Below, piece after piece: positions 21,668 to 64,000 of a stretch of 64,000 nucleotides of DNA (position 1 is its first letter; each line of letters starts with the position of its first letter). The notes beneath the pieces were generated by a model that was given only the letters and a program-made list of their open reading frames with translations, was not told where the DNA came from and did no database searches. The DNA is taken from the NCBI GenBank assembly GCA_964016885.1, contig OZ024741.1, positions 94,054,001-94,118,000 on the forward strand, read 5' to 3'. Position numbers and translations under genes: made by a program. This DNA is from Eledone cirrhosa. Its lineage: Eukaryota.

Positions 21668-21976
21668 TATGTTTGTGTAGGATTTAAAATTTATAGACTT
21701 TACTCTGAAGAATTTTTGTAAAAGTATTTGTGTTTTTATCATAATAGAATATATATATATATTTCTTTATTTACCATAAAGGCATAAAAAGAAGGGACAA
21801 ATACAAAGGGGGAGTTTACATACAACTGAGTAAAAAGGGTATAAAATGAAAATAATCAAAAACAACCTCAAAAGGGAGGGGACGTGATGGGGGTTGCACA
21901 GACCCCCGAAAAAGTGTGCAATCCTTTGCCCGGGGAGCACATGGAGAAGGTGCTCCCATCTCCTTTACTTCTTTAC

Positions 21977-26880: not shown

Positions 26881-27580
26881 CCGTCCGACACCAGCATGAT
26901 AACCGCCACCGCTGCGTTTACCAACATTAACCCACAGACCAATGACACGGAACACCTTTTCATAGACTTAACTGAATACCTCTCAAACGATGAACTGGAA
27001 CTTCTATACCTCGGACCCAAGTATACATCGTCTCACAGTGGCTCAACGACAGACTAAGATTTGACATCGAGGTCAACTTCTGCTCCCCTCTCTTATCAAC
27101 TGAAATGGATAACCGCCATCAACAATACCACCGAAAATGACAACACCTACACAACCCGCTACAAATTCTCCACCTACCACCTCGACAATCTACTTCACCC
27201 CCAACTCACCAACCACGAACTCAACAAGAAACTTATTAGGTTTAAACACTCTATCTCAGACATCTTGCATAAACACACATGCACACACCATGCAACCTCA
27301 CTAGATCACAACTCGCCACTCTGAAAAACCTGACAAAGGAAAATAATTCTGCTTCATCACCAGGGAGGCTTACAACAACCTAGCATTGACGATAGCAACC
27401 TTACTTCATGGTCACAGGAATCACCCATGCGTGGATCAAGGAACATGTCATTGCTACATGGACCAACATCTGTAACTGGCGGAAACTCCCGAAGAGACTG
27501 ACAAACAACCTTCTAACGAGGAACAGTAGGCTACCCGCTTTCTATCACCTCATCAAAAACCCATAAACAAGGACCCAACG
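26881..27580 (+). mobile_element. Penelope-like fragment nested in Tx1 ORF1
   Basis: Peptides DLTEYLSNDELELLYLGPKY and RLPAFYHLIK resemble PLE pre-RT motifs. Confidence 0.5.
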
Positions 27581-27582
27581 AG

Positions 27583-27767
27583 TCGGAATAACTACTATAA
27601 AGCATTCTATCCGACGATCTAACGACTCTGCCAATTCGCCGCCATCTGCAGTGTAATATTGGTTTCTTATATAGGCACATGACCAGCAATTTTGGGGGAG
27701 GGGAAAGTCGATTAAATCGACCCCAGTGCGTGACTGGTACTTTATTTTATCGACCTTGTAAGGATGA
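27583..27767 (-). mobile_element. Two SINE family A-related fragments
   Basis: Head ggcggcgaattggcagagtcgttag and tail catccttacaaggtcgataaaataaagtaccag on the - strand. Confidence 0.75.
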
Positions 27768-28599
27768 AGTGGCTTCATTAAGTACTTCTCTAAGTACTGC
27801 TTTAATTTCTGCTTGTGTTGGTTGTTGAGGTTTTTTTGAGATGTTGATGGTGCAGAAAACGACAGTCCGACTTTCAATATCTTTGGTGAGTTCTTGGGGC
27901 ATTTTTACCGATAAGGTTCCATTTTCCCCTTGAGTTATGAATTGTTTGGCGTTTTTTATTCTTTGTGCCACATCTGAAATATTTTCAGGTATATATGTTA
28001 AAGATTTTTTTGTTGTTTGTGCAAATGAGATATTATTGGTGTTGACTTTGTCGTCTGTTTTGCTTTCTGTTATGATGTTGTTTTCAAATGTTATTTTTGT
28101 GTTTGTTGTTTCTTTGTTTGTGGTATTAATATTGTCATGCAATTCTTTCAAATTTTTGTTGTTGTTGGAATCAATCTCCAGATTTGTGTTTTCGTCATTT
28201 TTCTCCGCACATTCGTCTGTTTTTATTTTATTTTTTCTTTCCTTCTCTATGACGTTAGTTGAGAAGGAAGGGGGGACTAAAGCGTGCGAGCTTGCAACTC
28301 TTACCGCTGTCCCCCCCACCACTATTTTCGTTAGCTTCGATTAACATTTCTGCCAGACGATTGAAATTTTATGCCACAAAATTTAAAAAAACAGGTTTTT
28401 CACCCTTGGGAGGGGCGAAGATGAGCTGACCCACCGCCTGACAGTTCAGACGGGGGCGGTCAAGCTACACAATAGTATCAAAATTAAAATTAAACTTACA
28501 AAATTTCCGCAATAAATTGGAACAAAACTTCTGCGCGAAGTGAATTACGTCTATGCTGTCGAACAGACGACAGCTAGGTTATAATAGAATATATATATA

Positions 28600-28818
28600 G
28601 GTCGGTGGATTGGCACTATTGGCAGAGAGTCGGACACCATGCTTTGCAGCATAGAGTTACGGTCCTTTACGGTCTGAGTTCAAATCTCGCCGAGGTTAAC
28701 TTTGCCTTTCATCCTTACGGGATCGACAAAATAAAGTACCAGTAACATACTGGTGTCGATCTAATCGACTTTCCGCTCCCCCCCAAATTACTGGCCTTGT
28801 GCCTATACTAGAAATCAT
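28600..28818 (+). mobile_element. SINE family A with 16-bp TSD
   Basis: Family consensus; TSD tataatagaatatata at 28580 and 28819. Confidence 0.92.
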
Positions 28819-29217
28819 TATAATAGAATATATAAATACACACACACACACACTCACACATAGATGTGTGTGTGTTTGTGTGTGTGTGTGTCAGTATGTG
28901 TGTGTATGTTTCATGAAGGAAAATGTTTGTAATCGATTTTGTTACATAACTCTAAGTCCTAACAAATTTTGATCGTTTAAATACCTATGTAAAATAGTGC
29001 TTTTACTCACGTTCTTTTGAGGATTTCTTTTCAATACTGACGTAGTTCATATTCGAATGTAAAGATTTTACCGGTAATGTAACTCATATACAAAATGAAT
29101 CGTAGAGGTAATAATGTTTCTTATATTTTTTTAATTAATTCTGAGGAATCCAGTCATTAGCTCATATAACTAATAATTGTATGTCCTATGAGATGGCAGA
29201 AACGTGCGTTAATTATA

Positions 29218-31103: not shown

Positions 31104-31687
31104 TCATGATTCTTGGGATACCTCAGCTTTGCAGACTTTTGAGAAGAGCTTTTTTTCTATTGTCTGCAATGTATCATAGTTAGCTACTTCAAAGACTCTC
31201 GAGCTGTCACCAGCTATGGTCTTAAGTTCATTCAAATCAACTTGTTTACCTACACCAATAGTGAAAGTTATGATATTACTCTGCGCTAGTTTTGTAGCTT
31301 CTTGGATGGTACTCTGAGGCGTTGTAGATTGGCCGTCAGTAATTACAATCACAATGTGTGGTACATCAGCTCTGCCGCCATTCGATTTCAAAAAACCCCG
31401 TGTTCGAACAAATTTCAATGCTTTCGCAGTATACGTATCACCATGAATTTGTTTAATTCCTCGTAATGCTGAAATCACAGCGGACTGCGATGATTTAGCA
31501 TTAAGATAAAAGCGATTTACCACATCGCTACTGAATGATACCATGCCAATTTGCGTGTTGTTACGTCCGACAACTGTGTCTTTGACAAAATTAATAATAA
31601 AATCAATCTGCTTCTTGTAGTCAGGGTCCCAAATACTGGTAGACTCGTCAGCTACAAATATTATGTCTGAAGGTATAACACCACAAA
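31104..31687 (-). CDS. Secreted triple-VWA protein (matrilin/collagen VI-type VWA), terminal exon 4
   Basis: Acceptor ttttttgaattacag, phase 1. Encodes DIIFVADESTS, GDTYTAKAL and IVITDG. TGA stop; AATAAA at 30975-30970. Confidence 0.88.
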
Positions 31688-33362
31688 CTGTAATTCAAAA
31701 AATAAGAAATATTGCATTATAGAACGAAAACATGTATGTATGTATGTATGTATGTATGTATGTATGTATGTATGTATGTATGTATGTATGTATGTATGCA
31801 TGCATGCATGTATGTATGAATGAATGTAGTATGTATGTATATTTGTAAACATGTATGAATGCATTTTTTATGCATGTATGAATGTATATTTGTATGTGTG
31901 CATTATGTATGTATGTGTAAGCACGTATGTATGCATCTATGTACGTGTGTTCTTGTTTTTTTTTTATAAAATTTCTCACTATTAGACAAACAAGATTCTT
32001 TCATTAATACTAATATACCAATACACCATCAAACCAACTACATCGTCTCTTTCCTTGACACCATCCCCTTCACACTCTTAGATACTATAATTATCATTAG
32101 ACCACATTCTCACACAGATGTGAAAATCAAAAAATGTTTAATAAGCTTTAAAAAAGCCCAACAGAATGAGTTACATAAAAAAAGCAGAAACAAAGTTTTC
32201 AAAATTCTGCAGCACCAAAATCACTAGACTTTGCAGTTAATTACATTCAAGAAATAATGACAGACGCCTCTAAAAAACACGCCACTAGACAACATAAAGA
32301 TATACAACTTCAACTAAACAGTAGATATAGCCAACCCCATGAAAATCAGAGATAGCATCAAACAACTTAGAAAATATCATATAAATAAGTCATACAAAGC
32401 AGAAAGTCTGATAAATATTTGTATGTTACGTAACTAATAGAAAAACACTCTTCAGAGTGATTAGTAGCCTCATCAAACCATCTCCTAAGAACAACTTTAA
32501 ATATATTTAGCAGATATTTTTCGGAATAAACCACCACGAAACATACAAATAAGACAGGATCAGAAAACGAAAAATACATACCCTCCATCTAGACACCGAT
32601 TTTTACCGCTCCTGCTAACTGACACCCCCACATAAACAGGGAAATCTAAAATATCTAAAATATCAAAGATCTTAAAACCAGACAAAGTGACAGTCAAACA
32701 CACGAACATGGACAACCGTTTCCGATCAGTGGGCCGCATAAGATATGGCTCATCATACGGCAGGCCGCACTACAAAAAAAGATTCAAGGCAAATTTGAAA
32801 TTAGGCGAGCCATTCAAAGCTGCCGTTTAAAGGAACCACTTCACTCACCAACATCTGTAATTATTCGTACCAATGGAATGTGGGAAATGGCGGAAATTAT
32901 AACACTTCTAACCATCATGCTCCACAACACAAACATACAAAACATACAAAACATACACAAGACAAAAATAGTAGAAATTATGTAAAACTCCTGCACAGAG
33001 AGAAGACAGAAAAGAAAGCAAAACGGCGTTCAAACGTGCTTAATTCAATCATAGGTGCCAAGTGAAAACAATACTTTATGGAATATCAGTCTTTCATAAG
33101 CTCTCAATCTCTCCACAACAAACCCAATTAAACACAAAGAACACAAAAACTGCACGATATACGTCATAACGAATTGTAGACAGACCACCAACACAGTTTC
33201 TGTAACTTCATGAAAAATCATCTCCATACACCCAGTCACATATATAGCATCCTAAAGCACCACTAAGAACATTTAAAAAACTCTAACATCTCCAGGACAA
33301 GAAGAAAGAACATATAGACACAGAAAGAGATTCAACATCCACAACCTCACTGAATTGAAACA

Positions 33363-37074: not shown

Positions 37075-37220
37075 CCCTAGAACTGGACTGGTACTTTTTT
37101 ATTGACCTGAAATGGATGAAAAGAAAAGTTGACCTCGGTGGGATATGAAGTCAGAGTGCAGAGAGTCGGAAGCATTCTATCCGACATTTAGATGACTCTA
37201 CTAATTCATCGCCTATTGCA
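37075..37220 (-). mobile_element. Old SINE family A-related copy
   Basis: Diverged match including actggtacttt and gttgacctcgg. Confidence 0.65.
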
Positions 37221-37299
37221 AACATTATATAATTTAAACAAACGCTTTGAAGGATGTCACTGCGATAAATTAAGTAAGAAATATATAAATATATCTTAC

Positions 37300-37866
37300 C
37301 TCTTTTACAGACATTTTGTTTCAGAGATGTTTCGATTGTAGCCAGAGAATTGAAATCTGTTCCTTTAAAGATATATTCTGGTTTTGATGCTATTGCTTTC
37401 AATTCATCTTCATCTATTCTATTTCCAACGGCCACCGTGTAGATTCTGAGAGGATCTTTATGAAGAAGTTTAGCTTCGTTGAGTGTTTGTGTCTTTCCGT
37501 TAGAACCACCGGCAGTTACAAGAATTACGATTTTAGGTACGCCCACTCTGCCACCTTCATCGATAGTAAAAGATTCCGTTCGAATATGTTTTAGAGCCAG
37601 CCAGGTATTGATGGACCCACTTCGGTAAACAATGTTAGAAACAGCTTTTAGAATGTCATGTTTTTGAGAAAAGGCGTTCAGTTGAAACTCAGTTTTGACG
37701 TCAGTTGAGAAGGTGACCACACCGATTTGAATCTTGTCCGAACTGATATCCATATCATTTACAAATGAATTGACGAATGCAAGCTCTTTCTTAAAATTTG
37801 CTTGTGTTACACTTGTGGAACAATCGAGAACAAATACAATATCAGCAGGATTCTCGCAGATGGTTC
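37300..37866 (-). CDS. Triple-VWA protein, exon 3 (one VWA domain)
   Basis: Acceptor ccttttcag, donor G|GTAAGA, 567 nt, phase 1/1; DIVFVLDCSTS. Confidence 0.9.
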
Positions 37867-38640
37867 CTGAAAAGGTTACACATGTGTTATACAGTGATAT
37901 CTGATTCGCAAAAAAAGTAGACAAACATACCAATATTTGTCAGTATCTTGTTGCTGCCTAAGTCCATAAGAAATTGGGTTACCCTTCAGAATGAGATATT
38001 TGTATTCTGTTACAGGCTTTTGTTTTTGCAAACAAATCATTTCTTAGACTCCTATTAATTTACTTAAACGCATGCTGCAGATTTATATAGGATTAAATTG
38101 CGTGACGTTCATATTTTTTTCAATAGAAATAATGGTACTACTAAATAAGATTGGAAAACATTTGGCTTGTCTAAAGGATTCACTGAGAGTTTAAATCATC
38201 TTCATATTCATCTGTCTTGGCTTCGAGAAATGAAGTAAATGAAAGGGCATTAGATAGGAGAAAACTTTATCGCATTGGACTAATCGAAAGAAAGCCTTAT
38301 GATATATATTTACCTTCTTCGGCCCATTTTGTCCCTCGCTCAATCGAGAGAAGTTTACAGGATGCGTACAGGACAATATACTCAGCGTAAATCAATTATA
38401 ACGCATACTGTAATTGAGTATCTTTGGGAAAATGTTAGGAATGATTAACAAGAAAAGAGTACTGGAGAAGTAGAGACTGTAATACACCTTACAGAATGAC
38501 TTACCTGTAAATTCTGTGTTTAAGTCAACTTCTCATTTCATACTACAACAGTCAATAAAACATGTTCTGAGATCGACGACAGTTGTCTTCTAAATTTAGA
38601 TGCTATTATACTGAGTAAGAAATATATAAATATATCCTAC

Positions 38641-39207
38641 CTTTTTTACAGATGCTTTCTTGCACTGGTGTTTCGATTGTAGCCAGGGAATTGAAATCTG
38701 ATCCTTTAAAGATATATTCTGGTCTTGATGCTATTGCTTTCAATTCATCTTCATCTATTCTATTTCCAACAGCCACCGTGTAGATTCTGAGAGGATCTCC
38801 ATGAAGAAGTTTAGCTTCGTTGAGTGTTTGTGTCTTTCCGTTAGAACCACCGGCAGTTACAAGAATTACGATTTTAGGTACGCCCACTCTTCCACCTTCA
38901 TCGATAGTAAAAGATTCCGTTCGAATATGTTTTAGAGCCAGCCAGGTATTGATGGACCCACTTCGGTAAACAATGTTAGAAATAGCATCAAGAATGTTTT
39001 GTTTTTGAGAAAAGGTGTTCAGTTGAAACTCAGTTTTGACGTCAGTTGAGAAGGTGACCACACCGATTTGAACCTTGCCCGAACCGATATTCATATCATT
39101 TACAAAGGAATGGACGAATGCAAGCTCTTTCTTAAAGTCTGCTTGTGATAGACTTGAGGAACAATCGAGAACAAATACAATATCAGCAGGATTGTTGCAG
39201 AGGATTT
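38641..39207 (-). CDS. Triple-VWA protein, exon 2 (one VWA domain)
   Basis: Acceptor aatcatttcag, donor G|GTAGGA, 567 nt, phase 1/1; DIVFVLDCSSS. Confidence 0.9.
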
Positions 39208-40424
39208 CTGAAATGATTATAATGGGTTATCAAAAAACAAAGATACCAATGTTAGACAATATTTTTCACTGTAAGACATTGGCTTTGGTTTGTCACTGGT
39301 GTTGCGGTGTACATCTAGCAAACTTATTACAAGTAAATTGCATCATCTATTGTTGTTAAGGGCGTGCTATAAGGGGCACAATTCACTATTGTAAACATAG
39401 CTTAACAGAGTTTAATGATAACTTAAAATCCTCTCTTTGGACCCAATTTTGTCACACCCGCTTTGCTGTCTTTCAATCGTTAATCTTATATATTACTATC
39501 AAACCTCATTTACACCCCAGAGACGATATACAAAAACATTTATAGTGATAGATTCTTATGAAATTAGACTGTTTTCGTTTTTCCCTCTTCGAATGTATCG
39601 TAGTCAATACTCTAGGCATTATTCACTAAGAGTGTCACTGAGTGACATTCGTATGATAGTGACTCGATATAGTAGCAAACCTTTCGTTGGCCTGCAGAGC
39701 TCATTTTTTATTTACTAACAACGATTAACTACGTGACCTTATTTTCTTCATTATACAACCCTATCTCATGTACCACCACACTGGTTACAACCACTATAAC
39801 TACAACTTTCTTAACCACAAAAAATACCAAACCATCATCACAATCATCACAATCCTCACAACAACAACCATGGCCACTACAACCCCCATCATTCAAATCA
39901 CTTCCCCCAAGCCACCATCCCTACCACCACCACTAGTCAATGTAAGAGGTTTTACTGGTAGAGTTAAGAGCCAAACACTCGAACATTTTAGAAAATGAAT
40001 GCCATTTTAGACAAAGTAGTTTGAGATATACAAAGAGATGGTTATGGTTAGAACACATTTGACGACACGTCTTCTCAATTAGAATTGATGTAGAGCTAAA
40101 TAAGAACAAAAACATCATGGCTACGCACCAGATATTCACATACAACACAACATCCACCTCTTCGACCCTATGATGCTTTAAGTCAGTTGATTGGTTTGAA
40201 CTCTATCAATTCTATGTGAACTATCCTGGTCAGCTCATGAGTTTTATCCTTGACTCATCGTAAACGGCTGAAACCATCCCTGAACCCATCCCCACATCAT
40301 CCGACGCATGACCAATCTGTAGAGACCAAAGTCTTCCAAGTTGTTTACTCATAGCTGAGCTGGTCCTTGCCAAAAAAGATCCCTACCAACTTTTCAGAAT
40401 ACTTCTTTCCTATACTTCTTAACC

Positions 40425-45263: not shown

Positions 45264-45487
45264 CACTATAGGCTATGTTAACATCTTGAAGTAAGTGTAT
45301 TTCCTTAAATATTAATTGTTCTATATATATGTACAAAATGGTAAGTTCTCAATTGATATGTTGCTACCTAATTTTCAAATTCACTAGCCGTTTATAAACA
45401 AAGCCTGCTTTGTGTCTCCATATTTATATACTTATATATACCTGCTATTGTTATAGAGCTTCTAATTGAATGGAAGGACGTATGGGT

Positions 45488-45558
45488 GGCCTGTTGGTGT
45501 AATGGTTGCACATTGGTCCGGCAAACCAAAGATGTAGGTTCGTGTCCCATGTACGTCA
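45488..45558 (+). pseudogene. tRNA-like cloverleaf (GGC at anticodon position), probably repeat-derived
   Basis: D stem GTGT/GCAC, anticodon stem TTGGT/ACCAA, T loop TTCGTGT, oligo-T just downstream. U33 and A58 are absent, and the acceptor and T stems have mismatches. Confidence 0.55.
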
Positions 45559-46008
45559 TTACTCATCCCTTTTTTTCCATTCAGAGGGTTTCTTAAAATC
45601 CCAACCAACAGACTAGTTCTATTTAGTCAAATACGGCGTAAGCACATATTACTACCTAATCTTCAAATTCGCTAGCTGTTTATAAACAAAGCCTGCTTTG
45701 TGTCTCCCTATATATATATATATATAAATAAAATATAGAGTTAATAACTCATATAGATACCCTGCAATTTATATAACATTTGTGGTGTAATCTACCCTCG
45801 TAATTTTAGACACGGGTTTACTGTGTTTACTTCTACACATATTAATATAGATATATATATATATATATGTGTATATGTGTGTGTGTGTGTGTTGAAATAG
45901 AAACGTCGACGTAACATTGACTACATAATATTGTCTAATAATAGGGCACTGAACGGAAAAAGATGGGTATCAGCAACCTCCTTCCCTAAATATATATATA
46001 TATATATG

Positions 46009-46474
46009 TATAGTATATTTGGCAATATGTTTAATTAAAAACATTTAGAAGACCATACGTTATCAGTTTTAAAGTAGTGACTATGTCACTTACTTATTTT
46101 CGGCGAAAGAAGGGAGAGCGGCTGACAGTCTGTTTCACGCTGGCTGGCGTTCATCAGAGCCACGCACTCCCCTGCTTCCGCTGAAAATTATAGAAGCTGG
46201 ATTCTTATAGAATTCCAGTAATAATCAGGAGCTGATTATACAGAGCGGTTGTCGGTCCAGCAAAAATTAAGAATGATGAACGCCAACCAGCGTGAAACAG
46301 ACTGTCAGCCTCTCTCCCTTCTTTCCCCGAAAAGAAGTAGGTGACATAGTCACTACTTTAAAACTGATAGGGTATGGTCTTCTAAATGTTTTAAATTAAA
46401 CATACGGTATATTGCCAAATATACTATACAATAATTCATGTACACATCGCTATTTCAGAGCACCAATCCTAATT
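46009..46474. repeat. Fold-back element, ~150-bp arms (46009-46156 / 46274-46428)
   Basis: Arms are reverse complements; the spacer is the inverse of 29925-30020; (TA)n lies on both sides. Confidence 0.85.
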
Positions 46475-46635
46475 TATATATATATATATAACATAGAAAA
46501 CAATCAAATTTTTGTTATCTGATATTTTACATTGAACTAATTTTCTTACTGATAATTGGGTAAACACAAAACATTACCCTTATCTTATTTATAATTGTAT
46601 ATAGATTATATATACAAGTATAAATATTATTATTA

Positions 46636-46776
46636 TTGGCAGTATCGGTAGAGAGTTGGACACCATGCTTTCCAGCATAGAGTTACGCCGCTTAGCTTTT
46701 TCTTTCATCCTTACGGGGTCTATAAAATAAAGCACCAGTAATGTACAAAATTGCTGGCCATGTGCCAATAATAGAA

Positions 46777-46780
<4 letters not shown>
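46636..46780 (+). mobile_element. SINE family A, internally deleted, with (ATT)n tail
   Basis: Family consensus, followed by (ATT)n to 46851. Confidence 0.85.
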
Positions 46781-46852
<72 letters not shown>

Positions 46853-46853
<1 letters not shown>

Positions 46854-47046
46854 GGCGGTGGATTAGCAGTCCGGTAGAGGGTCGGACGCCATGCTTTGAC
46901 GCAAAGAGTTACGGCCCTTTCCATTCTGAGTTCAAATCCCGCCGAAGTTAACTTTGCCTTTCATCCTTACCGGGTCGATAAAATAAAGTACCAGTTATAC
47001 ACTATGTAATTGCTGGCCTTGTGCCAAAAGTAGAAACAATTATTAT
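46853..47046 (+). mobile_element. SINE family A
   Basis: Full consensus; starts in the (ATT)n tail of the previous copy. Confidence 0.92.
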
Positions 47047-47712
47047 TGTTCAGTGCCCGAGCATTGCTGACTTGTGGAGCTATGTCGAACAGTTGCTGTC
47101 GCGTGTAGGACTGATCCGGTTATCGACTGAGTCCATTGTGCAGATGGTCTCGCCGTCTTCCCTCGAGGAGGAAGGGCAGGCGGTTTTCATCTGCCTGGTG
47201 GCCATGGCGAAAGAGATTGTGTGGTGGACAAGGTTGAAAGGGTTAAAGACAGACACTTTCCTCTTCGGCGAATCCCTAATTAACTTTTTCAAGTTTCACT
47301 TGAAGAGGAAAATCAGGGTGGAGAGGCAAGTGCTGCCTTCTAGCAAGTTTGTTGAAAGGTGGGTGAATATAGCGAGAATGGTCCGAGTGAACGGGACCGC
47401 TATGAATATACGCCTGTAGTTTGAGAAATAGAAAAATTGAGAGAGGGCGCTTGCCCTGGTGGTCAGGGTGGCCGTGGTCTTCTATGTGGTTTTCGCCACG
47501 AGTAACCCTCGGTTTCCCCTCTATTGGGGAATTTTTCGTTGTTTCAATTTTCATTTTTATTGTATATATATATATATATGTTTCTATGTCTTTTTCTTTT
47601 TCTTTTCTTATATAAATAATAAAAATCTTTACACGCACAAAACCCACATCGTACCGTCCTGTACCGTCTTGTAATGTTTTTCTTGATGTCAGCCCTGTGT
47701 CGAATAAAGAAA

Positions 47713-47714
<2 letters not shown>
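47047..47714 (+). mobile_element. 5'-truncated Tx1 LINE (ORF2 end plus 3' UTR)
   Basis: VQCPSIADLW...MNIRL* is homologous to 53256-53627; ends AATAAAGAAATC then (ATT)n. Confidence 0.9.
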
Positions 47715-47774
<60 letters not shown>

Positions 47775-48153
47775 GGCGACCTACGTAGGAAATCGTATTA
47801 TCGTGAGCTCCGCAAAGGTTTGTTATTTCTGTTTGTTTAAAAATTGTCATTTATGGAAAATTTTATTGTAAACTGTTTATAAGCACACATACATTGTTTT
47901 CCGAAAAGGACACCCAAAAAGATTGGGGCCTTGTGCCCAAAATTTTAACTTTTATTATTATCCAAAAATTTCTTTGAAAAAAAATTGCTAATTCCCCTGT
48001 GCACGAAGCAGCTGAAAGCCTTCCTCACAAAATAACACCTCACACCGACACCACCATTGTAAATGTTACTACGTTTGCCAACACAAAAAAAATATAAGCA
48101 GTAGCAATATTTTAAATTTGTCTCAGGCAGACATTCATTTCCCGCCATTACCA

Positions 48154-50170
48154 ATGACTGCAGGTGTTAAACCCTCCACCACCTCCACCACCGCGACAAC
48201 CACCACCACCACCACCACCACCGCGACAACAGAAACAAAAGAAGAAAAAAATAAATTAACTCGTGACGTCGAAATGAAATCAAGCAAAATGGACTCTTCC
48301 CCACCAAAGACGACTGACGTCACCACCACCACAACTGAAAATAAAATTAATATTAACGATAGCAACAACAACAACAATGACATTATAAAACCGACCCTCA
48401 GTTTCGCCATCGTAGCAAAACAATTCGAAGCGTTCACGGTAACTCAAGAAGATTTAGAAAATGCCAAACAAATGGTAAAGAAAGATGGGTACAGGGTCAG
48501 CCTCACCCCCCCACCTAATAAAATGGAGCATCGGCGCCTGTGCACCGTGTCGTATAGAACAATAAATGTAAAATCGCGCCGAGTGGAACGGGCATCCGAG
48601 TCCCAAATCCAAAAAGCTTTGGGACATGTGTGGGCAAGAAAAACCCACATCAGACGTGGGCAAAAGTATGGAACCGTGGATGTGTTCTTTGAAACACCAG
48701 AGGAGGCTAGAGAACACTTCATGGCCCCATTAAAAAGTGACGACCTCACACTCGTCCCAAGCTATTGTGGCCAGAGACTCGTAAAGATCAGGGTGACCCA
48801 CGTTCCACCGGCCATCGAAATTCCCTGGCTAATAACGGCTGTCCTCGCCGGCATCGAAGCCAACACGAAAATAATAGCAGTAGCAAAAGAAAAGCAGGAA
48901 AACTGGTCCGGATCTGGGATGGAGCTCCTGATCCAAGCGGACCAAAAAAGCATTGAGGAGATCCCAGAGGTAATAGACCTCACTGACGGCAGCCACCTCA
49001 CGGTAATTGTCGAGGGCAGAAGACCTAGGTGTGTCGTTTGTGGTGAAGGAACCCACCTAAGGGGTTTCTGCCCTCAGGCTAAAAGGTTGAGGCCACCTCT
49101 CCTACCCACCCCAGTGACACAACCATCAACACCACCAGTAGCAGAGATGGCAGCAACAACTGTAGCAGCAACAACAGAAGCAACTATAACAGCAACAACC
49201 CCAGCAACAGTAGCAAAACCAACACCACTACCACCACCAGCAAAACCAACACCACCACCACCCAACGCTTCAGAACTAGCACCAGCGCCTACACCATCCA
49301 CCACACCACAACCAAAACTAACGGCTGTGGAGGATTTTCCACTCCCCGGCCTATCACAACTGGAGACAGATTGTGACGACGAGGAGTGGGAAACGATATC
49401 CGGAAAAAAAAAAAAGAAACCAAAAAAGAAAAAATTCTCTTCCTTCCCCCTCCAAAAACAAAATACAGAGGGAAACAAATAAACTAAGAAACAAAAAAGT
49501 TAGGACAGATATGCCACCATCCACACCAGCATCACTAACCCCATCAACTCAAACACCAACACCATCACCATCATTAACTCCAGCACCACCATCACCTACA
49601 CCACAAAAGTCACCAAAATGCGAAACAGAAACAAACCCACAACAAACGCAAACAAAACAAAACAACCAAAACGATACACACTACACAGCATTAAATTTGA
49701 ACAACAATTGGTGGATTGGTAGTATCGCTAGAGGGTCGGACGCCATGCTTTCTAGCATAGTTACGTCCCTTTACGATCTGAGTTCAAATCCCGCCGAGGT
49801 TGACTTTGCCTTTCATCCTTACGGGGTCGATAAAATAAAGTACCAGTGAGGCACTGGGTAGTTGCTGACCTTGTGCCTAAAGTAGAAACAATTAAATTTA
49901 AACAACAAGCTATTTTTACACTACATCCAACACAACACCAGCATCACAGAAAAAGACTACACAACAACCCCAAAATTCACACCACCTCCACACATACAAA
50001 TCACTCGCATCACACAGAAAACGTACATGACACTAAAACAAAAATTCCCCAAAGACATCGGAGACTTCCGACAAGCACTCTCCAGGAGGATTTATAAGGA
50101 CATCCTTCCTGAGGAGGCCACAAGCAGTGAAAAGGATGGAAAAGCCGTCCTTCCCCTACGAGAAGTAAGG
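48154..50170 (+). pseudogene. Tx1 ORF1 (CVVCGEGTHLRGFC zinc knuckle), frameshifted and SINE-interrupted
   Basis: ORF 48118-49482 continues in another frame after the poly-A run near 49404; SINE inserted at 49709; 3' end approximate. Confidence 0.8.
49709..49890 (+). mobile_element. SINE family A nested in Tx1 ORF1, 18-bp TSD
   Basis: TSD attaaatttRaacaacaa at 49690-49707 and 49891-49908. Confidence 0.92.
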
Positions 50171-50207
50171 TAAGTGGTCTTTCCCATCTTTTCCACTCCT
50201 TTTCAAC

Positions 50208-53200
50208 ATGACCTCACTCAGAATAGGCAGCATAAATGCGCGTGGCTTGGGGTCGTCATGGAAGCAGGGCCACCTGCTCAACGACCTCAGGTCACTAAAC
50301 ATAGATGTAGTGGCCATCAGCGAGACCAGAATCTCCGAAGCACAGGCTTTCGCACCGATCTTCGGCGGCTACGATGTGTACGCATCTCCCAGCCGTCCGG
50401 GATCGGGGGGAGGAGTTGCTGTGCTTTTTCGGAGAGGTTTGGATCTTGCCATACGGGCCATCTTCCTGGACCCAGAAGGTAAGTTGGTGGTGCTGGACGT
50501 GACCAGCGGAGACGGGCAAGCTTTCAGGTTAGTGGCCGTCTATGCCCCGACAGGAGCAGGGCGGCCTGATTTCTTCCGGCGTCTGGAGACCTTTCTTGGA
50601 ACGTCCCGCTCTTTAGTGTTAGTGGGCGACTGGAACGGGATCTTAGATGCACGCTGGGATTGTGTGGGATTAGTGGATAGGGAAGGAGGGTGCAAGAGTC
50701 TCACCAACCTGCTCAGACGTTTTGAACTGTCTGACAGGTACCGAATGGATTTCCCGAATGTACCAATGTGGACTTGGACAAATCGCATAGGGTCATCCAG
50801 ATCATATCTAGATAGAGTATTTTGTAGGGAAATAGATAGGTCTAGCATAGGCTGTCCACAATTCAAGATAGTCAGCTACACGGACCACAAATTCGTGATC
50901 TGTGTGCTTGACTTAGATAGGCTTCATAGACGAGGACCCGGCTACTGGAAGTTAAACGCGCCCTTACCAGCGCGCAAGGCCTACAGAGACCGGATTAGCG
51001 AACTAGTTAAGCGGGCGTTGACGGGGGCCATCGTCAACAACAAGTGGTGGTTTGCTCTGAAAAGAGCAATTAGAATAGAGTCCATTAGGTTTAGTAAGAC
51101 TTAAGCAATAGAGAAAAATAGAGCAGAGGGAGAATTAGTTAGAAAATTAGATGAGACGCTTAGCAAAGGCATCGCGACCGACGTACTTGCGGCGAAATTG
51201 GCCCTTGACCAATTCTTCAATGCAAAGCACGAAGGCTGCGTTGTCAGAGCTAGGGTGCGTGCTCTCAGACACGAGGGCGCGAAAGCCGTTCAATGGGCCC
51301 GAGTGGCGGAGGCACGTCGTGGCAACAAAGCCACGATCCGGTCTTTGGTGGACCACGACGGGCGCATGCTACTCGATCCCGGGCAAATGTGTGAAGCTTT
51401 TCAGCGACACTTCGCTCAACTGTTCGGGGGCAGTGGCGGGCCGGATCGAGGGATGGACTTTAGTGTCTACCTTGACGGACTGCCGCGGCTTTCGGCCACT
51501 GAGGCGGAGTGTTGCGAAAAGCCGATAACAGCCGCTGAAGTACGGGAGGCAATGACTGGCTGCACAAGAGGTAAATCGCCTGGTTTGGATGGTCTGCCCT
51601 ATGAACTTTACGTACAGATGCCAGACTTGTTCGGAGGCCTCTTGGCGGACGTCTACTGCAACTGGCAACAGAACGGGAGAATTCCCAGCTCTGTGAGCCG
51701 AGGAGCGGTGGCGCTGCTGAGAAAGGATCCGAACAAGGGGGATAACATAGATAATTTTAGGCCCATAACTCTGCTAAACACAGAGTTCAAGATTTTGGCC
51801 AAGGTGCTAGCAAAGAGGTTGGCGCTTGTCGTTGGTGGTCTGGAGGGAGAGGCACAGACATGCGCCATTCCCGACAGATCCATCCACGACAACCTCCACC
51901 TCATGCGATACATCGTAGAGAGGGTAGCTAGGGAACCTGGCACGGGTGGGTCTTTGATCAATTTAGATCAGTCGAAAGCCTTCGATAGGGTCGACCATCG
52001 TTACCTAACGGCAGTCCTGAGGGCGGCTGGCTTTGGGCCCGTCTTCAGAGGCTGGATCGCTGCCATGCACAGCGACATCTGCTCTGTAGTGAGAGTGAAC
52101 GGTCACCTTTCGAAACCGTTCAACATCATGCGCTCGGTCCGCCAAGGATGTCCCCTCTCGTCCCTATTGTACGTATTGACTCTCGAGCCATTACTGCACA
52201 AACTGGAGACGTTGAGGGGGGTCCCGCGCGAACTAGGATGCGGAAGATCCGTGTCAGCATATGCCGACGATGTCACCGTAGTGGTGTCGAACGCCAAACA
52301 CATCGAGGCGATCGGCACTACACTAAGAGAATACGAAGCGGTGACAGGTGCAATGATCAACCAGCAAAAGTCAGTGGGCCTGCAGCTCGGCACCTGGAGA
52401 GGCAGGTCCATGCCGTCCAACAGCGTCGTCGGGCGCTGGACGGACGGACCGGTTAAATTGCTAGGGGTCTGGTTCGGTCCAGACCTCCAGACGGACAAAA
52501 ACTGGGACGAGGTGACGAGCAGGGTGGCTTCTCTCACCCAGAAATGGGCCGAGAGGAAGCTATCCCTGAAAGGTCGAGCGGAGGTGGCGAATGCGTACAT
52601 CGCATCCGTCATCTACTACCGCCTGACCGTCGTACCTTGTCCTAAGCCCCGCCTGACTGCGCTGGAGCGTTTGCTCTTTCGCTTCTTGTGGAAGGGACGC
52701 GCTCCGATGGTCAGGCGGTCCATCTGCTGTCAACACCCGCTACGTGGAGGGCTGGGCATGCCGTGGCTGACGATGCGCAGACACGCGCTCAGGCTACGAC
52801 ATTTCGACCTCTTCCTCGACGGTGATCAGGTGTGGTCGCCGTTTGCAAGACACGTTTTTCCCCAGCTCGTCTCCTTGACGGAGCTGCAGTCCTGGGTCAA
52901 GCGAAGACCGAGAGGGAGCGCTTGGAGACTGGAATGTCTTCAGGCGCTCACAGCCCTCGACCAATCGGGCAATGTGATCGGTGGAAACTCCACCTTGGCG
53001 TTCTATAGGGGATTAGTGGAGGGGAAGAGCGACGACGTACTTGGAGAAACTCTAGGCGTCGACGAAAATCAACTAGCCAATCTCTTCGGAAGGACTTTCG
53101 GGCCGGGGCCTATGGACAACTTCCAGAAATCCCTGGCCTGGAGGTGCTACCGAGGAGCTTTGCCAGTTCGGGATAAACTCTACAGGCATGGAGGTGCCGT

Positions 53201-53627
53201 CAGCCGGGCATGTCCGAGATGCGCGCAGGGCGACGAAACCGTCCTGCACGCACTCGTCCAGTGTCCGAGCATTGCTGACTTGTGCGTTTATGTCGAACAC
53301 CTGCTGTCACGTGTAGGACGGATCCAGCTATCAGCTGAGTCCATCGTGAGGATTGCCCCGCCCCCTTCCTTTAGCCTGGAAGGGCAGGCAGTTTTTATCT
53401 GTCTGGTGGCCATGGCGAGAGAGATAGTATGGTGGACACGTTTGAAAGGGCTGAAGACAAGCACTTACCTCTTCGGTGATGCCCTGATTAACTTTTTCAA
53501 ATTTCATTTGAAAAGGAAAATCAGGGTAGAGAGGGAAGTGCTCTCTTCCCAGCATTTTGTTGAAAGATGGGTGAGAGAAGCAAGTATGGCCCGAATGAAT
53601 GGGCCTTCTCTGAGTATGTGTCTGTAA
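50208..53627 (+). CDS. Tx1 ORF2 (APE endonuclease, RT, C-terminal zinc finger), one in-frame TAA at 51102
   Basis: ORFs 50208-51104 and 51198-53627 share a frame and are open between them. Motifs: SINARGL, ISETR, VGDWN, SYLDR, TDHK, SPGLDG, QGCPLS, AYADD, CPRC..H..C. Confidence 0.92.
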
Positions 53628-53870
53628 ATTAAAGGTGGAAAACTGGGAGAGGGCACTTGCCCTGGTGGTCAGGGCCACTGTGGTCTTTTAATGGGCTTTC
53701 TCCACAAATGTCCCTTGGAAGTCTCCCCCCTATTGGGGAATTTTTTCTTTGTTATTTTATTTCAACCTCTGTTTTTTTACACGCAGAAATGCCCATTTGT
53801 ACCGTCCTGTATTGTCCTGTACTGTCCTTAATGTCTACTTTATGTGAACCCTTGTGGTTAATAAAGAAAA

Positions 53871-53932
<62 letters not shown>

Positions 53933-53933
<1 letters not shown>

Positions 53934-56900
53934 AGCTGAATTTATCTTGCTTTATGTTCATACGAGTTATCACCAAGTCACAACCAGTGACCTCAAGAGA
54001 CAACAAGGTCCGCCATGTTCAAAAAAGAACATACATACTCACACATGCATCTTTAGCTGTTTAGACTTGTGATGTACTTATATTGACAGAATTTTCCTTA
54101 GTATATGGGCAGTTCCCATTATTATTATCTTTTGTATTTCTCCTATACGCGGGTTTCCTGGGATTTGCGATAAGTAATCATTAGACCCCTTAGGTATCAT
54201 TCCTAGAGCGCCTACAACTACTGGTATTGTTTTAGTTCTCAATTTCCACATTTTTCCAATTTCTATCTCCAGGTCCTTATACTTGCTCAATTTTTCAAAT
54301 GTTTTTATAGATACATTCTTGTCTATTGGAACGGACATATCAATTAGCAGCCATACCCTCTTTTGAAAGTAAGTCCTTCAATATTATATCAGGTCTATTT
54401 GCATCTATTTTTCGGTCTGTTTGGATGCTAAAGCTCCACAAGATTGAGATGTGATCTTTTTCAAGTATGGGAGGTGGTTGATGCTCCCACCAATTCTTTT
54501 GATGGGGCAGGTCAAAATGCTTACACGTTATCCAATGTATGTATTGTGCAGCTCTGTCATGCCTGTTTAGGTATTCGGTTGGAGCTATAGGACTGCACAT
54601 TGAAATTATATGGTCAATGGTCTCTGGTTGTTTTTACATACACGGCATAATGGGCTGCATCCATTTTTTATTATGTTGGCTTGGTAATTTTTTGTTGGCA
54701 GACACTGATCTTGTTCTGATATAATCAGTCCTTCAGTCTCCGATTTCAGTCCAGAGGATGCCAACCACTGATGGGTTAAAGTTTTGTCAACATCAGTATT
54801 GTTAGCTCGTTCTGGGTATTTTCCATACAGAGGCTTTTCTTGCCATTTCTTAGCCAGTTTCTGTAGCAGTTCTTTCTTTGCAGTTACTTTGCCTTTTCTG
54901 TGTTTTCCATTTCAGCAGTAAATGGGACTTCTGAAATTTGTAGTCCATTACTGTATCTTTGTGCATCTTTTGTAATGGAGTATGATCTTTTGATGCTTTC
55001 GTGTTTCAAAACGAGTTTGATCATCCAATCATGTGATTCCCTTAGATATGTAGATAATCCAATTGTTGCAGTTTTCAACGCAATGTCTAACTGGATTAAC
55101 CCACGTCTTCCTTCTTTCCTAGGGAGATATATTCTATCTGTATCTGCCTTAGAGTGATGCATTCTGTGCATGGTTAAGAATTTTCGAATTTTTGTATCGA
55201 GCCTACGGATCTCTGTGCTTGACCAGTTGATGACATTGTAACTGTAGGTTACTACTGGTATGGCAAGCGTGTTTATGGCATCGATACTATTCCTTGCATT
55301 CAATTCCGTTCTTAAGATTGCTCTTACTCTGCGGTAACATTCCTTCCTTATCCTTTCCCTTATTGTCGAGTGCTTGATTCCGTCTCCTTCACAAACGCCT
55401 AGATATTTGTAAGTTTCCTCTTGATCAAGTTCTCTTATCACATTCCCTCGATCAATATTAATGTCTAAACTTTTCAGCAGCTTTCCTCTGGTGAACGTTG
55501 CATTGGCGCATTTATCTAGTCCAAACTCCATTTTAATGTCATCACTGAACTGCTCCACAGTGGATAATAGCCCTTGCAATTGTTCATAATTTTTTGCAAA
55601 TAGTTTCAGGTCATCCATGTAGAACAAGTGATTAATGGTTTTGTCATAGACTTTATATCCATGTTTTGTTCCATTGAGCATTTTACTTAATGGTATAAGT
55701 GCGATGCAGAATAAAAGCGGTGATAAAGAGTCACCCTGAAAAATTCCACAATTAATATTAACTTCTCCAGCTTCCAGTATTTTTTTTCACTATTCAAAAG
55801 GAGTGTCGTTTTCCATGTCTTCATACTGACAAAAACCTCCTGACAACGGGGGATATTTTGAAAATCTCTAAACATTTTTCAATCCAACTGTGTGGCAAAC
55901 TATCGAATGCTTTTTTATAATCTATCCAAGCAATTGATAGATTTTTGTGTCTATTATGACAATCTTCGAGTATCATTTTGTTAACCAAAAGCTGATCCTT
56001 ACAGCCATATGAGCCTCGTTTATACCCTTTCTGCTCAATGGGAAATAGGCCATTTGTTATCAGGTGGACATATGTATATTCAGTTAGGACTGATGTTAAA
56101 ATTTTATACATTGTGGTCAAGCAAGTTATCGGTCTGTAATTTTTGGGATTGTTTGTCTCATCATTCTTCGGAAGCAGGAATGTAATGTCGTTAACTAGTC
56201 ATGATGGTATCTTTTCTGGCTCCTTAACTATTTCATTGTAAAGTTGGGCTAACAGCTCATGAGACTCTGTGAAGGCATTTATCCAAAAATTTTGTATTTT
56301 GTCTTTTCCTGGAGATTTCCATTTGCTGGTTTTTCTTAGAGCCAAACGCAACTGTTCAACTGTTATATTTTCCCATGTTTGTTCCTCAAGGTGAGCTGTA
56401 TCTTTCATTTGTCTGTCTATCCATGGTGCATGTATATTATGAACTTTTTCTTCGGCCCAGATCTTTTCCCAGAATTCTTGCACTTCCTCCTTGGGTGGTA
56501 TTGATTTAGCAGTTATTGTTGACTTACCAATTTTTCTGTAGAAGTTTCTTTGGTTGATTTTGAACATATTATTGTCCTTATAGAATCTAGATTGTTTTTC
56601 AAAGCGCCTTATACTAGCAGCTTTGTTCGACACTTTTTGCTTGATTATTTCTATCAGCATGCCTATGTCACTTGTTGGTTTTATACTGTACTTTCTTTTC
56701 AATTTTCTAAGTTTAGTTTGTTTAACATGTTCATCTACTTTATAGTTTTTTAAAATTTCTATGTCAGATCGGAGAAGGTTTATTTGGCGATTGATGTTCT
56801 CTTGCCGAGTAGATTTCTTGTGGGAATTCCTTTGTTTTTTCATCTTCACTCCACATAAGTGAGTGGTGACTTTAGCCGATGCATAATAGAGATGATTTAA

Positions 56901-57806
56901 ATCAGTAATGTTTAGTTTGTTTGTGATGATAATGTTTTTGATAATTATGTTAGTCTTGTGTATTATCTTTTGGTTCTGTTTGGAGTTCTGGATCTTAGGG
57001 AGGGTGTCTCGTTCCCCCATTTCAGATTCTTTCATTTTCATCCATTCGATCATAATTTCATCCTTCAAGTTGGCAAGTTCATTCTCATTCATTTCCCTAT
57101 CATTTACGATCTCATTGTTTTCATTTGGAGTTTCATCTTGAGCATGCACTCCCTCCACTTTTTCGATCCTTTCTTTAATTTGTTCTGTTGTCAGTGATTC
57201 CGCCCCAACCCTGGGATTCGAAGTGTTACAATTTACCTCGTTTTCACTGACACATGTTTCATTTTCCCTTCGCTGACTTTGTGCTAATAGCTTGATCTGA
57301 TCAATTTCTATATCAGTTAGTAACTTTTTTTTTACAATATTTCTTCGTATATTGGCTTGTTTGTTACTGTCAATATAGCCTCTGTTTTCGGGATGTTTCT
57401 TTTTCCAGTTGATATATGTCTGTTCTGTATTCGATGTATTTGATGGGTAGTACATGGCAGTGTAGAAAGCCTCAAGGACTTCTTTATTATCTTCCCTTGA
57501 CCATTTTTCTCTCTTTTTCTTTGGATTTCTTGATGGTGAGCATGGAGGGCCAACAGTAGGAGTATTCCGGTTATGGAAGGTCTCCAGCTCCGAAGTGATG
57601 GGAAGGTTTGAACCATTAGCTGATTTTTCGACCCCAGTCTGGTTCCTCTCTGAGGGACGCGGCCCTTTTTTTACCCGGGTGACGGCCGATCCGGTATGAA
57701 ATTTTATCATTAGACATTTACTTTATTTTGTCGCGTTTTATCCTTATCCGCCAAGGGGTAATCATTTCGTGTTACCACTTCTAGAACGAGTGTCAACCAA
57801 GACTAT
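53933..57806 (-). mobile_element. Near full-length R4/Dong-type non-LTR retrotransposon (RT + REL endonuclease), several lesions
   Basis: Single broken ORF 57710-54078 with KSPGKDKI, NYRPITCL, WIDYKKAFDS, GIFQGD, LFYMDDLKL, RHD, NRPDII, LIDMSVP, KLSKY and PVVVGALG. (TAA)n lies at its 3' end and (TAA)n(GAA)n at its 5' end. Confidence 0.88.
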
Positions 57807-57822
57807 TCTTCTTCTTCTTCTT

Positions 57823-57882
<60 letters not shown>

Positions 57883-62895: not shown

Positions 62896-63479
62896 TTAAT
62901 CAGTTTTGATGACCTCGACACGACATACTTTGGTAAAAAGAGCTTTTTCTATGGTCTTCAACGTATCATAACTTGCAGTTGTGAACATGTTATCTGCAGA
63001 ACTTGCAATCATTCTTAGTTCTGCTGGATCCACTTCCTGTCCGACTCCCAATGTAAAGACTTCAATACCTGTTTTATGAATAGCTGTAGATTCACGTGCT
63101 GTTTTTGTTGGACTTTGTGCTTGTCCATCTGTAATGACAATAGCGATATGCGCCACACCATCACGACCACCATTTTCTTTGGTGAAACCTTCTTCTCGAA
63201 CAAGTTTCAATGCATCTCCAGTATTAGTGTTGCCATGGCGGCGAGTAATGTTAAGAATAGCTTTCTCCAGGTCTTTTATATTTGAAAATTGGTTCAGCTT
63301 TATCCGATGTACAATTTTGGTGCTGAATGTGACCACACCGATTTGCGTGTTATTTACACCGACTATGGTGTCTGTTATGAACGAATTCAAGAATTTTAAT
63401 TGTAATTTGAAATCTTCATCTAAAATACTGGTTGACTCGTCTAACACAAAAATAATATCCGATGGAACCACACCACATA
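62896..63479 (-). CDS. Terminal VWA exon of an upstream paralogous gene (rest lies beyond the window)
   Basis: Acceptor ctttgacattgcag, phase 1. Encodes DIIFVLDESTS, GNTNTGDAL and IVITDG. TAA stop; AATAAA at 62875-62870. Same 584-nt length as 31104-31687. Confidence 0.88.
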
Positions 63480-64000
63480 CTGCAATGTCAAAGAAGAATA
63501 TGAAATATAAAAATTAAAACAAATATAGGTTGATTATTAACGTAGAGGACACCATTCAATAATGAAGAGAAAGTAAGAGTTTGGGGAAATCATGTGAGAC
63601 ACTTGTTTCTGTACAACTGGGAACTATCTGCATGAAAGGTATATTAATTTGAATACATTTAGAGAAAATATATATTCTGAATAATTGTTCATGTTCCATT
63701 CTTACACTTGCCAACAGATTTAATTTATAGAGTTATCGTTGTTGTTCATTCAATCATTACTATGGTAAATTAAGCTGAAATTATCGCATCAATTCCACAT
63801 CCTTTATAAAAGGAATATATATGTGGTTTATTATCATACACATATTTACTTGAAATAATTCTCTTAGATATAGACTCCACACTTTCTTTACTAAGATACA
63901 TAATTATCTGTCACAACCTGTCAGGGGTAAAAGAGAATGTGGGAAGACCTGGATGTCGTATGAAGATACTTGAACAATAACACAGTAGTGGTACGAATTT

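What the first reader, a model, noticed from the sequence alone, without database searches (positions are those of the whole stretch)
46636..57880. 11-kb retroelement chain linked only by (ATT)n tracts
Seen: SINE-(ATT)n-SINE-ATT-Tx1 3' fragment-(ATT)n-full Tx1-(ATT)n-inverted R4/Dong-(TTC)n(TTA)n, with no unique DNA between members. SINEs and Tx1 are co-oriented with ATT tails; the Dong-like element reads the tract as TAA. Known: Dong targets (TAA)n, and some Tx1 families (Kibi, Koshi) target TC and TTC repeats. Inference: an (ATT)n-preferring Tx1 family, with each insertion regenerating the landing pad shared by three unrelated element types.
Basis: partly seen in the sequence, partly recalled or inferred. 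Interest (0 to 1): 0.75.

Follow-up and report, generated by a model that had tools for sequence, protein, structure and literature searches.

The report
Jumping genes chained on ATT repeats
This 11-kb stretch is a stack of five jumping-gene copies joined only by ATT repeats; the main one belongs to a young family of thousands of copies that sit almost always in ATT repeats facing one way, likely because its enzyme cuts there, while an unrelated element uses the same repeats from the other strand and a very common short element likely borrows the first one's enzyme.

Summary
The chain is real, and the ATT-targeting inference holds. The Tx1-like LINE family has at least 8,471 3' ends genome-wide. 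Of 30 top-scoring full-length copies, 30 start directly after a sense (ATT)n. In a position-ordered sample the figures were 23 of 25 full-length and 8 of 25 truncated copies, against 0.09% background. The 5' tract is not part of the element: 48 of 50 pairs have no outer duplication. Dong-like copies use the same tracts antisense.
Corrections: (1) The 'full' Tx1 is dead, with two ORF1 frameshifts, an ORF2 stop and a third SINE inside. (2) The Dong copy is 5'-truncated and abuts (GAA)15, not TAA. (3) The SINE is probably not unrelated: it ends in the same hairpin as Tx1 and usually needs only about two ATT units. So two enzymes, not three, likely share the pad.
Microsatellite-specific Tx1 families are known; seven literature searches found no ATT target. 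The scan already reported this system on other DNA of this genome.

The parts
46626..46637 (+). (ATT)4 tract at the left edge of the chain
46638..46776 (+). SINE1: degraded copy, clipped at the 5' end and internally deleted
   Evidence: at most 73% identity over its length to fetched copies
46777..46851 (+). (ATT)25 linker
46854..47038 (+). SINE2: full-length (about 185 nt); 3' hairpin with loop CTTGT shared with Tx1
   Evidence: nearest fetched copy 92%
47039..47047 (+). (ATT)3 linker
47048..47714 (+). 5'-truncated copy of an older ATT-tailed Tx1-type family (family B): end of ORF2 plus 3' UTR
   Evidence: 72% to the full element; 91-92.5% to 6 fetched family-B copies
47715..47774 (+). (ATT)20: tail of the fragment and 5' flank of the full LINE
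47775..53871 (+). Full-length but inactivated Tx1-type LINE (family A): ORF1 with a CCHC knuckle, frameshifted; ORF2 50208-53627 with APE, RT and zinc finger, stop at 51102-51104
   Evidence: 77 substitutions in 5,864 aligned bases against the intact copy L076
49708..49890 (+). SINE3 inserted in the Tx1 copy, with an 18-bp target duplication (49690-49707 and 49891-49908, one mismatch) that begins with ATT
53847..53865 (+). Tx1 3' hairpin (4-bp stem, loop CTTGT) followed by AATAAA
53872..53931 (+). (ATT)20 shared by the Tx1 tail and, as (AAT)n, the Dong tail
53932..57805 (-). Dong/R4-like LINE, 5'-truncated by about 1,060 nt and frameshifted; RT, CCHC and a C-terminal PD..D..K-type motif
   Evidence: nearest fetched copy 97.7%
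57806..57879 (+). (TTC)15 then (TTA)9: the Dong 5' junction, read on its strand as (TAA)9(GAA)15
   Evidence: (GAA)n 5' junctions in 3 of 44 resolved Dong copies, this one included

Best explanation
The chain is a series of separate retrotransposon copies sitting in ATT repeats, likely built by successive insertions: a young Tx1-type LINE family likely nicks the AAT strand of (ATT)n and so always faces one way, a Dong-like LINE likely nicks the other strand and faces the opposite way, and the SINE likely borrows the Tx1 protein through a shared 3' hairpin. Shown: the anatomy, the flank bias, the fixed polarity, the shared hairpin and 11-21-bp duplications at SINE sites. Inferred: the APE domain nicks the bottom strand at the left edge of an ATTAT run; the freed end pairs with the RNA's AUU tail and primes reverse transcription; a second nick about 11-21 nt further on duplicates the target. 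One tract thus becomes two (the duplication on the left, tail plus remainder on the right), each a new landing site, and chains grow. The SINE, carried in trans, needs only about two ATT units and so spreads genome-wide. Likely order here: SINE1, SINE2 and the family-B fragment are older, Dong and the full Tx1 are younger, and SINE3 came after the Tx1 it interrupts.
For: 30 of 30 top 5'-end matches (the window's own copy included) follow a perfect sense (ATT)n of 18-64 nt, always in the phase ATT|GGCG; 16 of these are not behind another Tx1 tail. Position-ordered sample: 23 of 25 full-length and 8 of 25 truncated copies have 4 or more ATT units at the 5' junction, against 49 of 56,800 random positions. 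48 of 50 5'/3' pairs have no duplication outside the tracts. All 37 neighbours labelled Dong are antisense. Dong 5' junctions: 32 AAT, 3 AAG, 9 neither and 0 ATT, of 44 resolved among 60 loci. SINE last 30 nt against shuffled 3' ends: Tx1-B p=0.001, Tx1-A p=0.049, two Dong ends p about 1.0. Hairpin: 88.5% of cells paired, 3 of 4 pairs changed on both sides, slid controls 17-54%. SINE duplications of 11-21 bp in 22 of 30 copies, 21 beginning with ATT. Intact ORF1+ORF2 copies exist (L076). A sister family in the same window keeps the hairpin but sits in (TATC)n/(TA)n, so the target is family-specific.
Against: 17 of 25 truncated copies fail the ATT rule: 5 abut another microsatellite, which is weak since 8% of random positions do; 2 more have ATT runs by eye; about 10 have no repeat. 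20 of 70 sampled copies ran off the fetched DNA and were not scored. The hairpin test rests on 4 pairs and 14 rows that I chose, one of them mis-cut, and the SINE match to family A itself is marginal (p=0.049). The SINE search pattern ends in ATT, so duplications that begin with ATT are partly built in. Neighbour labels are automatic; some 5' Dong-B labels are doubtful, and at least one pair (L217) joins two different copies. No empty allele of this locus was seen and no enzyme was tested. Clade membership (Tx1 or another L1-group lineage) was not tested by a tree.
Confidence: 0.82

Rival explanations
1. Targeting is set mainly by RNA-DNA pairing, not by endonuclease specificity. A loosely specific APE nicks AT-rich DNA, and only nicks that expose AAT can prime on the AUU-tailed RNA. 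Long-tailed LINE RNAs favour long tracts, and short-tailed SINE RNAs accept ATTAT.
For: SINE sites need only about two ATT units, and 0 of 30 SINE copies have a tail of 4 or more units. The sister family with a TATC/TA tail sits in TATC/TA repeats. Target and tail are the same repeat in every family seen.
Against: The invariant 5' phase ATT|G in 30 of 30 copies suggests an in-register second cut. PMC4494074 (passages) states that target choice is mainly set by the endonuclease. The two models are not exclusive.
Confidence: 0.3
2. The 5' (ATT)n is carried by the element's own RNA (transcription starting in the upstream tract), so ATT is only head and tail and the insertion sites are less specific.
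For: Full-length copies obey the rule (23 of 25) more often than truncated ones (8 of 25). 14 of 30 full-length copies sit behind another Tx1 tail.
Against: No duplication outside the tracts in 48 of 50 pairs. Truncated copies are still about 370-fold enriched. 5' tracts adjoin the proper ends of other elements.
Confidence: 0.07
3. The SINE is mobilised by a different LINE (for example RTE, CR1/L2 or another ATT-tailed family) and only co-occurs with Tx1 because it ends in ATT.
For: Only six 3' ends were compared. The match to family A is marginal. The SINE (at least 141,950 3' ends) far outnumbers family A (at least 8,471).
Against: The SINE has the same loop, the same stem position, a compensatory change and the same spacing to the tail as the Tx1 families. 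It does not match the two Dong ends or a third ATT-tailed element.
Confidence: 0.2
4. The chain is an assembly artefact: unrelated repeat copies joined at microsatellites.
For: The joins lie in 60-75-bp simple repeats. The public contigs and RAD reads laid on two stretches without long repeats showed no piece bridging a junction.
Against: The same junction types recur at dozens of independent loci with exact element termini and fixed polarity. The window has no N. The tracts are far shorter than long reads.
Confidence: 0.03

Closest known systems
Microsatellite-specific Tx1-clade LINEs: Kibi (TC)n, Koshi (TTC)n and crocodilian Tx1 on (TTCC)n/(TTTC)n (PMC4494074: passages and part 3 of 5 of the text; PMC3812793: passages)
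   Same: APE-type LINE of the L1 group with a strong preference for one microsatellite; meets that paper's criterion of more than 20% of flanks.
   Different: The target is (ATT)n, not found in the texts searched. The host is likely an octopod. The repeat is shared with an unrelated LINE on the other strand. Fig. 3 labels, supplements and Repbase entries were not seen and may list such a target.
Dong (Bombyx), DongAg and DongBg on TAA repeats (PMC3812793 passages); Dong-R4 in Octopus (PMC13282606: part 1 of 3 and passages; PMC9115989: passages)
   Same: RT plus CCHC and a C-terminal restriction-like motif, TAA tail, TAA 5' flank (32 of 44).
   Different: Here two Dong-type families share their tracts with a Tx1 family of opposite polarity, and some 5' junctions carry (GAA)n. 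The octopus passages read give no target sites.
SINEU and Tx1-Mar of crocodilians (PMC4494074, part 3 of 5 read)
   Same: A SINE likely moved in trans by a target-specific Tx1, with weaker target preference than the LINE and frequent tandem insertions.
   Different: In the part read, that link rests on a shared target and shared heads. Here it rests on a shared 3' hairpin and tail, the target is a microsatellite, and the SINE has over 140,000 copies.
Stringent SINE/LINE pairs with a shared 3' stem-loop, including a plant L1-clade lineage (PMC3747384 passages)
   Same: Conserved 3' hairpin with a conserved loop and compensatory stem changes, shared by LINE and SINE.
   Different: An animal Tx1-type LINE with a 4-bp stem and 5-nt loop before AATAAA; function untested.

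Membership tests
Tx1 clade (L1 group) | ORF2 with N-terminal APE endonuclease, RT and C-terminal zinc finger | tested here: met
   Pfam Exo_endo_phos, RVT_1 and zf-RVT on the intact copy P0001
Tx1 clade (L1 group) | RT closer to L1 than to other clades | tested here: met
   Best PDB match is human LINE-1 ORF2, E 1e-52 over residues 5-855; R2 proteins 5e-20
Tx1 clade (L1 group) | Separate ORF1 with a CCHC knuckle (recalled feature) | tested here: met
   654-codon ORF1 with C-x2-C-x4-H-x4-C read in the translation; no Pfam family passes
Tx1 clade (L1 group) | RT phylogeny groups it with Tx1, Kibi, Koshi and Keno rather than other L1 lineages | not testable with these tools
   No named Tx1 sequence came back; the Atlas gave no result
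Target-specific LINE (criterion of PMC4494074) | One sequence type in more than 20% of flanks | tested here: met
   31 of 50 resolved 5' junctions in the position-ordered sample; 30 of 30 top matches
Kibi/Koshi lineage | Target (TC)n or (TTC)n | tested here: not met
   The target is (ATT)n; TTC at only 2 of 50 resolved 5' junctions
Dong (R4 clade) | RT followed by CCHC and a C-terminal restriction-like endonuclease motif, no APE | tested here: met
   RVT_1; CCHC, RHD and RPD..D..K motifs read in translations of the window copy and of P0065; the motif names are recalled
Dong (R4 clade) | Insertion in (TAA)n | tested here: met
   32 of 44 resolved 5' junctions; the window's own copy abuts (GAA)15
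Dong (R4 clade) | RT phylogeny with Dong/R4 | not tested
   No named reference sequence was available
SINE | Short non-coding, high-copy element with target duplications and a simple tail | tested here: met
   About 185 nt, at least 141,950 3' ends, duplications in 22 of 30
SINE | tRNA-, 5S- or 7SL-derived head | tested here: inconclusive
   Neither ARAGORN nor Rfam hits the chain's SINEs; A- and B-box-like motifs seen by eye from a recalled consensus
SINE with Tx1-type partner | 3' tail shared with the partner LINE | tested here: met
   (short match; p=0.001 for family B, 0.049 for family A)
SINE with Tx1-type partner | Mobilised in trans by that LINE's protein | not testable with these tools
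   Needs a retrotransposition assay

The most novel reading that the evidence does not exclude
Octopod genomes hold a radiation of Tx1-type LINEs, each locked to its own microsatellite (ATT, TATC/TA) but all reading RNA through one conserved 3' hairpin. The ATT branch drives a dominant SINE of the genome (over 140,000 copies) and, with Dong enzymes on the other strand, makes a large share of the genome's long ATT repeats and builds polarised retroelement chains: a self-amplifying safe harbour shared by two endonuclease classes.
Probability: 0.5. Interest if true: 0.62.

Novelty: new variant of a known kind. Interest (0 to 1): 0.45.

Why it matters
It adds a target sequence to the short list of microsatellite-specific LINEs. 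It gives a natural comparison of close APE relatives with different targets (ATT against TATC/TA), which makes it testable whether the enzyme or tail pairing sets specificity. It names a likely motor for a very abundant SINE in a group where SINEs make up 11.6% of one genome (PMC13282606) and for which I found no partner LINE named in the passages read. It also offers a mechanism for TE hotspots and for the supply of ATT microsatellites: 5 of 8 long tracts in 200 kb of background DNA adjoin one of these elements (by eye). It is not a new class of element or enzyme, and the copies in this window are dead.

Tried and rejected
Empty site and assembly check: the run search found two contig sets of one sample and three RAD-seq runs. 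Laid on the right flank and on SINE2 plus the fragment, they gave no piece that bridged a chain junction or showed an empty allele, so this was uninformative.
Clade assignment: the homologue search returned 62 proteins with almost no names, cluster look-ups gave no Tx1 name, NCBIfam gave only sub-threshold RT and exonuclease III hits, and the protein Atlas returned nothing.
SINE head: no ARAGORN or Rfam match.
'ATT is only a tail' was rejected. 'The SINE is (ATT)n-specific' was rejected and by 0 of 18 copies in background DNA and the window (that rule missed the chain's own SINE1 and did not pick up SINE2).
Dating by identity to the nearest fetched copy is unreliable for SINEs: SINE3 is at 95.6% yet must postdate a 99% Tx1.
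Literature: seven searches found no ATT-targeting Tx1 and no octopus SINE-Tx1 pair. Kojima and Fujiwara 2004, Repbase and supplements were not read and may bear on novelty.
Full report
Observation. The chain is in the sequence as described: SINE1 46638-46776, (ATT)25, SINE2 46854-47038, (ATT)3, a Tx1-type 3' fragment 47048-47714, (ATT)20, a Tx1-type LINE 47775-53871, (ATT)20, a Dong-like LINE on the minus strand 53932-57805, then (TTC)15(TTA)9. The window has no N. The genome is about 3.0 Gb. A neighbouring vWA exon matches a collagen VI-like protein of Argonauta at 54%, so the host is likely an octopod (inference).

Corrections to the anatomy. Against an intact genomic copy (L076: ORF1 654 codons, ORF2 1,139 aa) the window's LINE has 1-nt indels near 48085 and 49404, a 201-nt insertion at about 49700 and a stop at 51102-51104. 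The insertion is a third SINE with an 18-bp duplication, and the other copies aligned lack it. The Dong copy begins about 1,060 nt into its family and abuts (GAA)15.

Identity of the LINEs. ORF2 carries APE, RT and zf-RVT domains and is closest to human LINE-1 ORF2 among solved structures (E 1e-52). ORF1 has a CCHC knuckle. 'Tx1' is therefore a likely label, not tested by a tree, because no named Tx1 sequence was returned. The Dong-like element has RT, CCHC and a C-terminal PD..D..K-type motif (motif names recalled).

Is ATT a target or only a tail? The family is young (ORF2 region median 98.3% among 96 fetched matches) and large (8,471 exact matches to a 26-nt 3' pattern, 0 for the reversed control). 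All 30 fetched loci of the 40 best 5'-end matches, the window's own included, have a perfect sense (ATT)n of 18-64 nt directly upstream, in one phase. 14 of these follow another Tx1 tail and 16 do not. To avoid ranking by identity I used the position-ordered list: its first 30 loci and 40 that I picked from the next 70. Of these 70, 25 were full-length, 25 truncated and 20 ran off the fetched DNA. Four or more ATT units lay at the 5' junction in 23 of 25 full-length and 8 of 25 truncated copies, against 49 of 56,800 background positions. The two full-length misses have a degenerate tract and an internal deletion. Of the 17 truncated misses, 5 abut other microsatellites (background 8%, so weak), 2 have ATT runs by eye, one is a recombinant with another Tx1 family, two are one duplicated site, and the rest have no repeat. 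If the 5' tract travelled with the RNA, duplications should lie outside the tracts. 48 of 50 pairs show none; the exceptions are a locus-edge artefact and a 6-nt match. The tract is thus a pre-existing target.

Polarity and chains. In those 50 pairs, 34 of the 5' neighbours and 34 of the 3' neighbours are labelled retroelements. All 37 Dong neighbours are antisense and the Tx1 and SINE neighbours are sense; one antisense Tx1 label is a low-complexity match (automatic labels, some doubtful). Dong 5' junctions were (AAT)n in 32, (AAG)n in 3, neither in 9 and (ATT)n in 0 of 44 resolved among 60 loci. Chains like this one are the rule for the family: the listed matches often lie about 5-6 kb apart on one strand.

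The SINE. It has at least 141,950 3' ends. In 30 position-ordered copies, 22 have an 11-21-bp duplication, 21 of them beginning with ATT (partly built into the pattern), but only 2 have four or more ATT units upstream. Its last 30 nt resemble Tx1 ends (family B p=0.001, family A p=0.049, TATC family p=0.064) and not two Dong ends or a third ATT-tailed element (p 0.6-1.0). In 14 hand-chosen ends of Tx1 families and SINEs, a 4-bp stem around a 5-nt loop pairs in 88.5% of cells; 3 of 4 pairs change on both sides, including C-G in Tx1 to G-C in the SINE; slid controls give 17-54%. The stem is short and I named it myself, so this is good but not conclusive support for a Tx1 partner.

Mechanism. Inferred from these data and from established target-primed reverse transcription: the Tx1 protein binds the 3' hairpin, nicks the AAT strand, primes on the AUU tail and makes a second nick about 11-21 nt away. 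This fits the minimum 5' tract of 18 nt. One tract becomes two. Dong does the same from the other strand with a different endonuclease. Whether the enzyme or tail pairing sets the target is open. A sister family in this window (about 21761-28578, minus strand) keeps the hairpin but has (TATC)n at about 16 and (TA)n at 3 of 20 5' junctions, and none has (ATT)n (by eye).

Comparison with what is known. Microsatellite-specific Tx1 families are described for (TC)n, (TTC)n, (TTCC)n and (TTTC)n, and a Tx1 group likely moves SINEU with weaker specificity (PMC4494074: passages; part 3 of 5). Dong on TAA is listed in PMC3812793 (passages). Shared 3' stem-loops mark stringent SINE/LINE pairs (PMC3747384, passages). 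Octopus papers report active Dong-R4 and L1-Tx1 families without target sites in what I read (PMC13282606: part 1 of 3 and passages; PMC9115989: passages). Passages of PMC4758252, PMC5786205 and PMC4640811 added no ATT target. Seven searches found no ATT-targeting Tx1. Figure labels, supplements, Repbase and the 2004 survey were not seen.

Earlier notes. Eight unreviewed reports of this scan describe the same system on other DNA of this genome. My reading, including the SINE partner, was recorded before that look-up and was tested here; the agreement is not independent evidence.

Limits. Assembly and empty-site checks with public runs were uninformative. No enzyme was tested.

Verdict. The chain is real and is a typical example of a genome-wide pattern: a new target variant of a known kind. 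Interest 0.45.

Noticed in passing
window 21761-28578, minus strand: A second Tx1-type family, about 70% identical in ORF2, with the same 3' hairpin; its copies sit in (TATC)n or (TA)n rather than (ATT)n. The window copy is interrupted near 26920-27770 by a SINE piece and other DNA.
   Followed up: partly
window 21742-21760, 28580-28600 and 28830-28850: The same motif of about 18-21 bp occurs three times: it flanks that Tx1 copy on both sides and also flanks the adjacent SINE (about 28601-28829), which faces the other way. Two insertions appear to share one target duplication in opposite orientations.
   Followed up: no
L061, L200, L206, L213, L218, L222, L046, L150: ATT-flanked Tx1 subfamilies with different 5' ends and ORF1 (37-54% identity); in L061 ORF2 is 97.6% identical while ORF1 is 53%, which suggests ORF1 swapping by recombination.
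   Followed up: partly
L088:1404-4172 (P0065) and many 3' flanks: A second Dong/R4-type family (Dong-B) with an (AAT)n tail; it is the commonest 3' neighbour of the Tx1 family (15 of 50).
   Followed up: partly
L085, L201, L203, L056: Another ATT-tailed interspersed element, without the hairpin, whose tails also receive Tx1 insertions; its class was not determined.
   Followed up: no
L121, L187, L185, L190, L192, L218: (GAA)n/(TTC)n tracts recur at Dong 5' junctions and next to some Tx1 copies; they may come from slippage on the GAA-rich Dong 5' end or from a GAA-tailed family.
   Followed up: no
window 31104-31694, 37151-37939, 38606-39226, 62896-63513, minus strand: vWA-type exons of a collagen VI-like gene or gene cluster; one was searched (54% to an Argonauta protein). 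The chain lies between such exons, likely in an intron or between tandem genes.
   Followed up: partly
window about 46060-46410: An element of about 350 bp with long imperfect terminal inverted repeats just left of the chain, MITE-like by eye.
   Followed up: no
window 45487-45559: tRNA-like sequence, called tRNA-Ala(GGC) by ARAGORN, 39 bits in Rfam; possibly the head of another SINE.
   Followed up: no
L195, L196: A truncated Tx1 copy inside a minisatellite, duplicated with it 2.5 kb apart.
   Followed up: no
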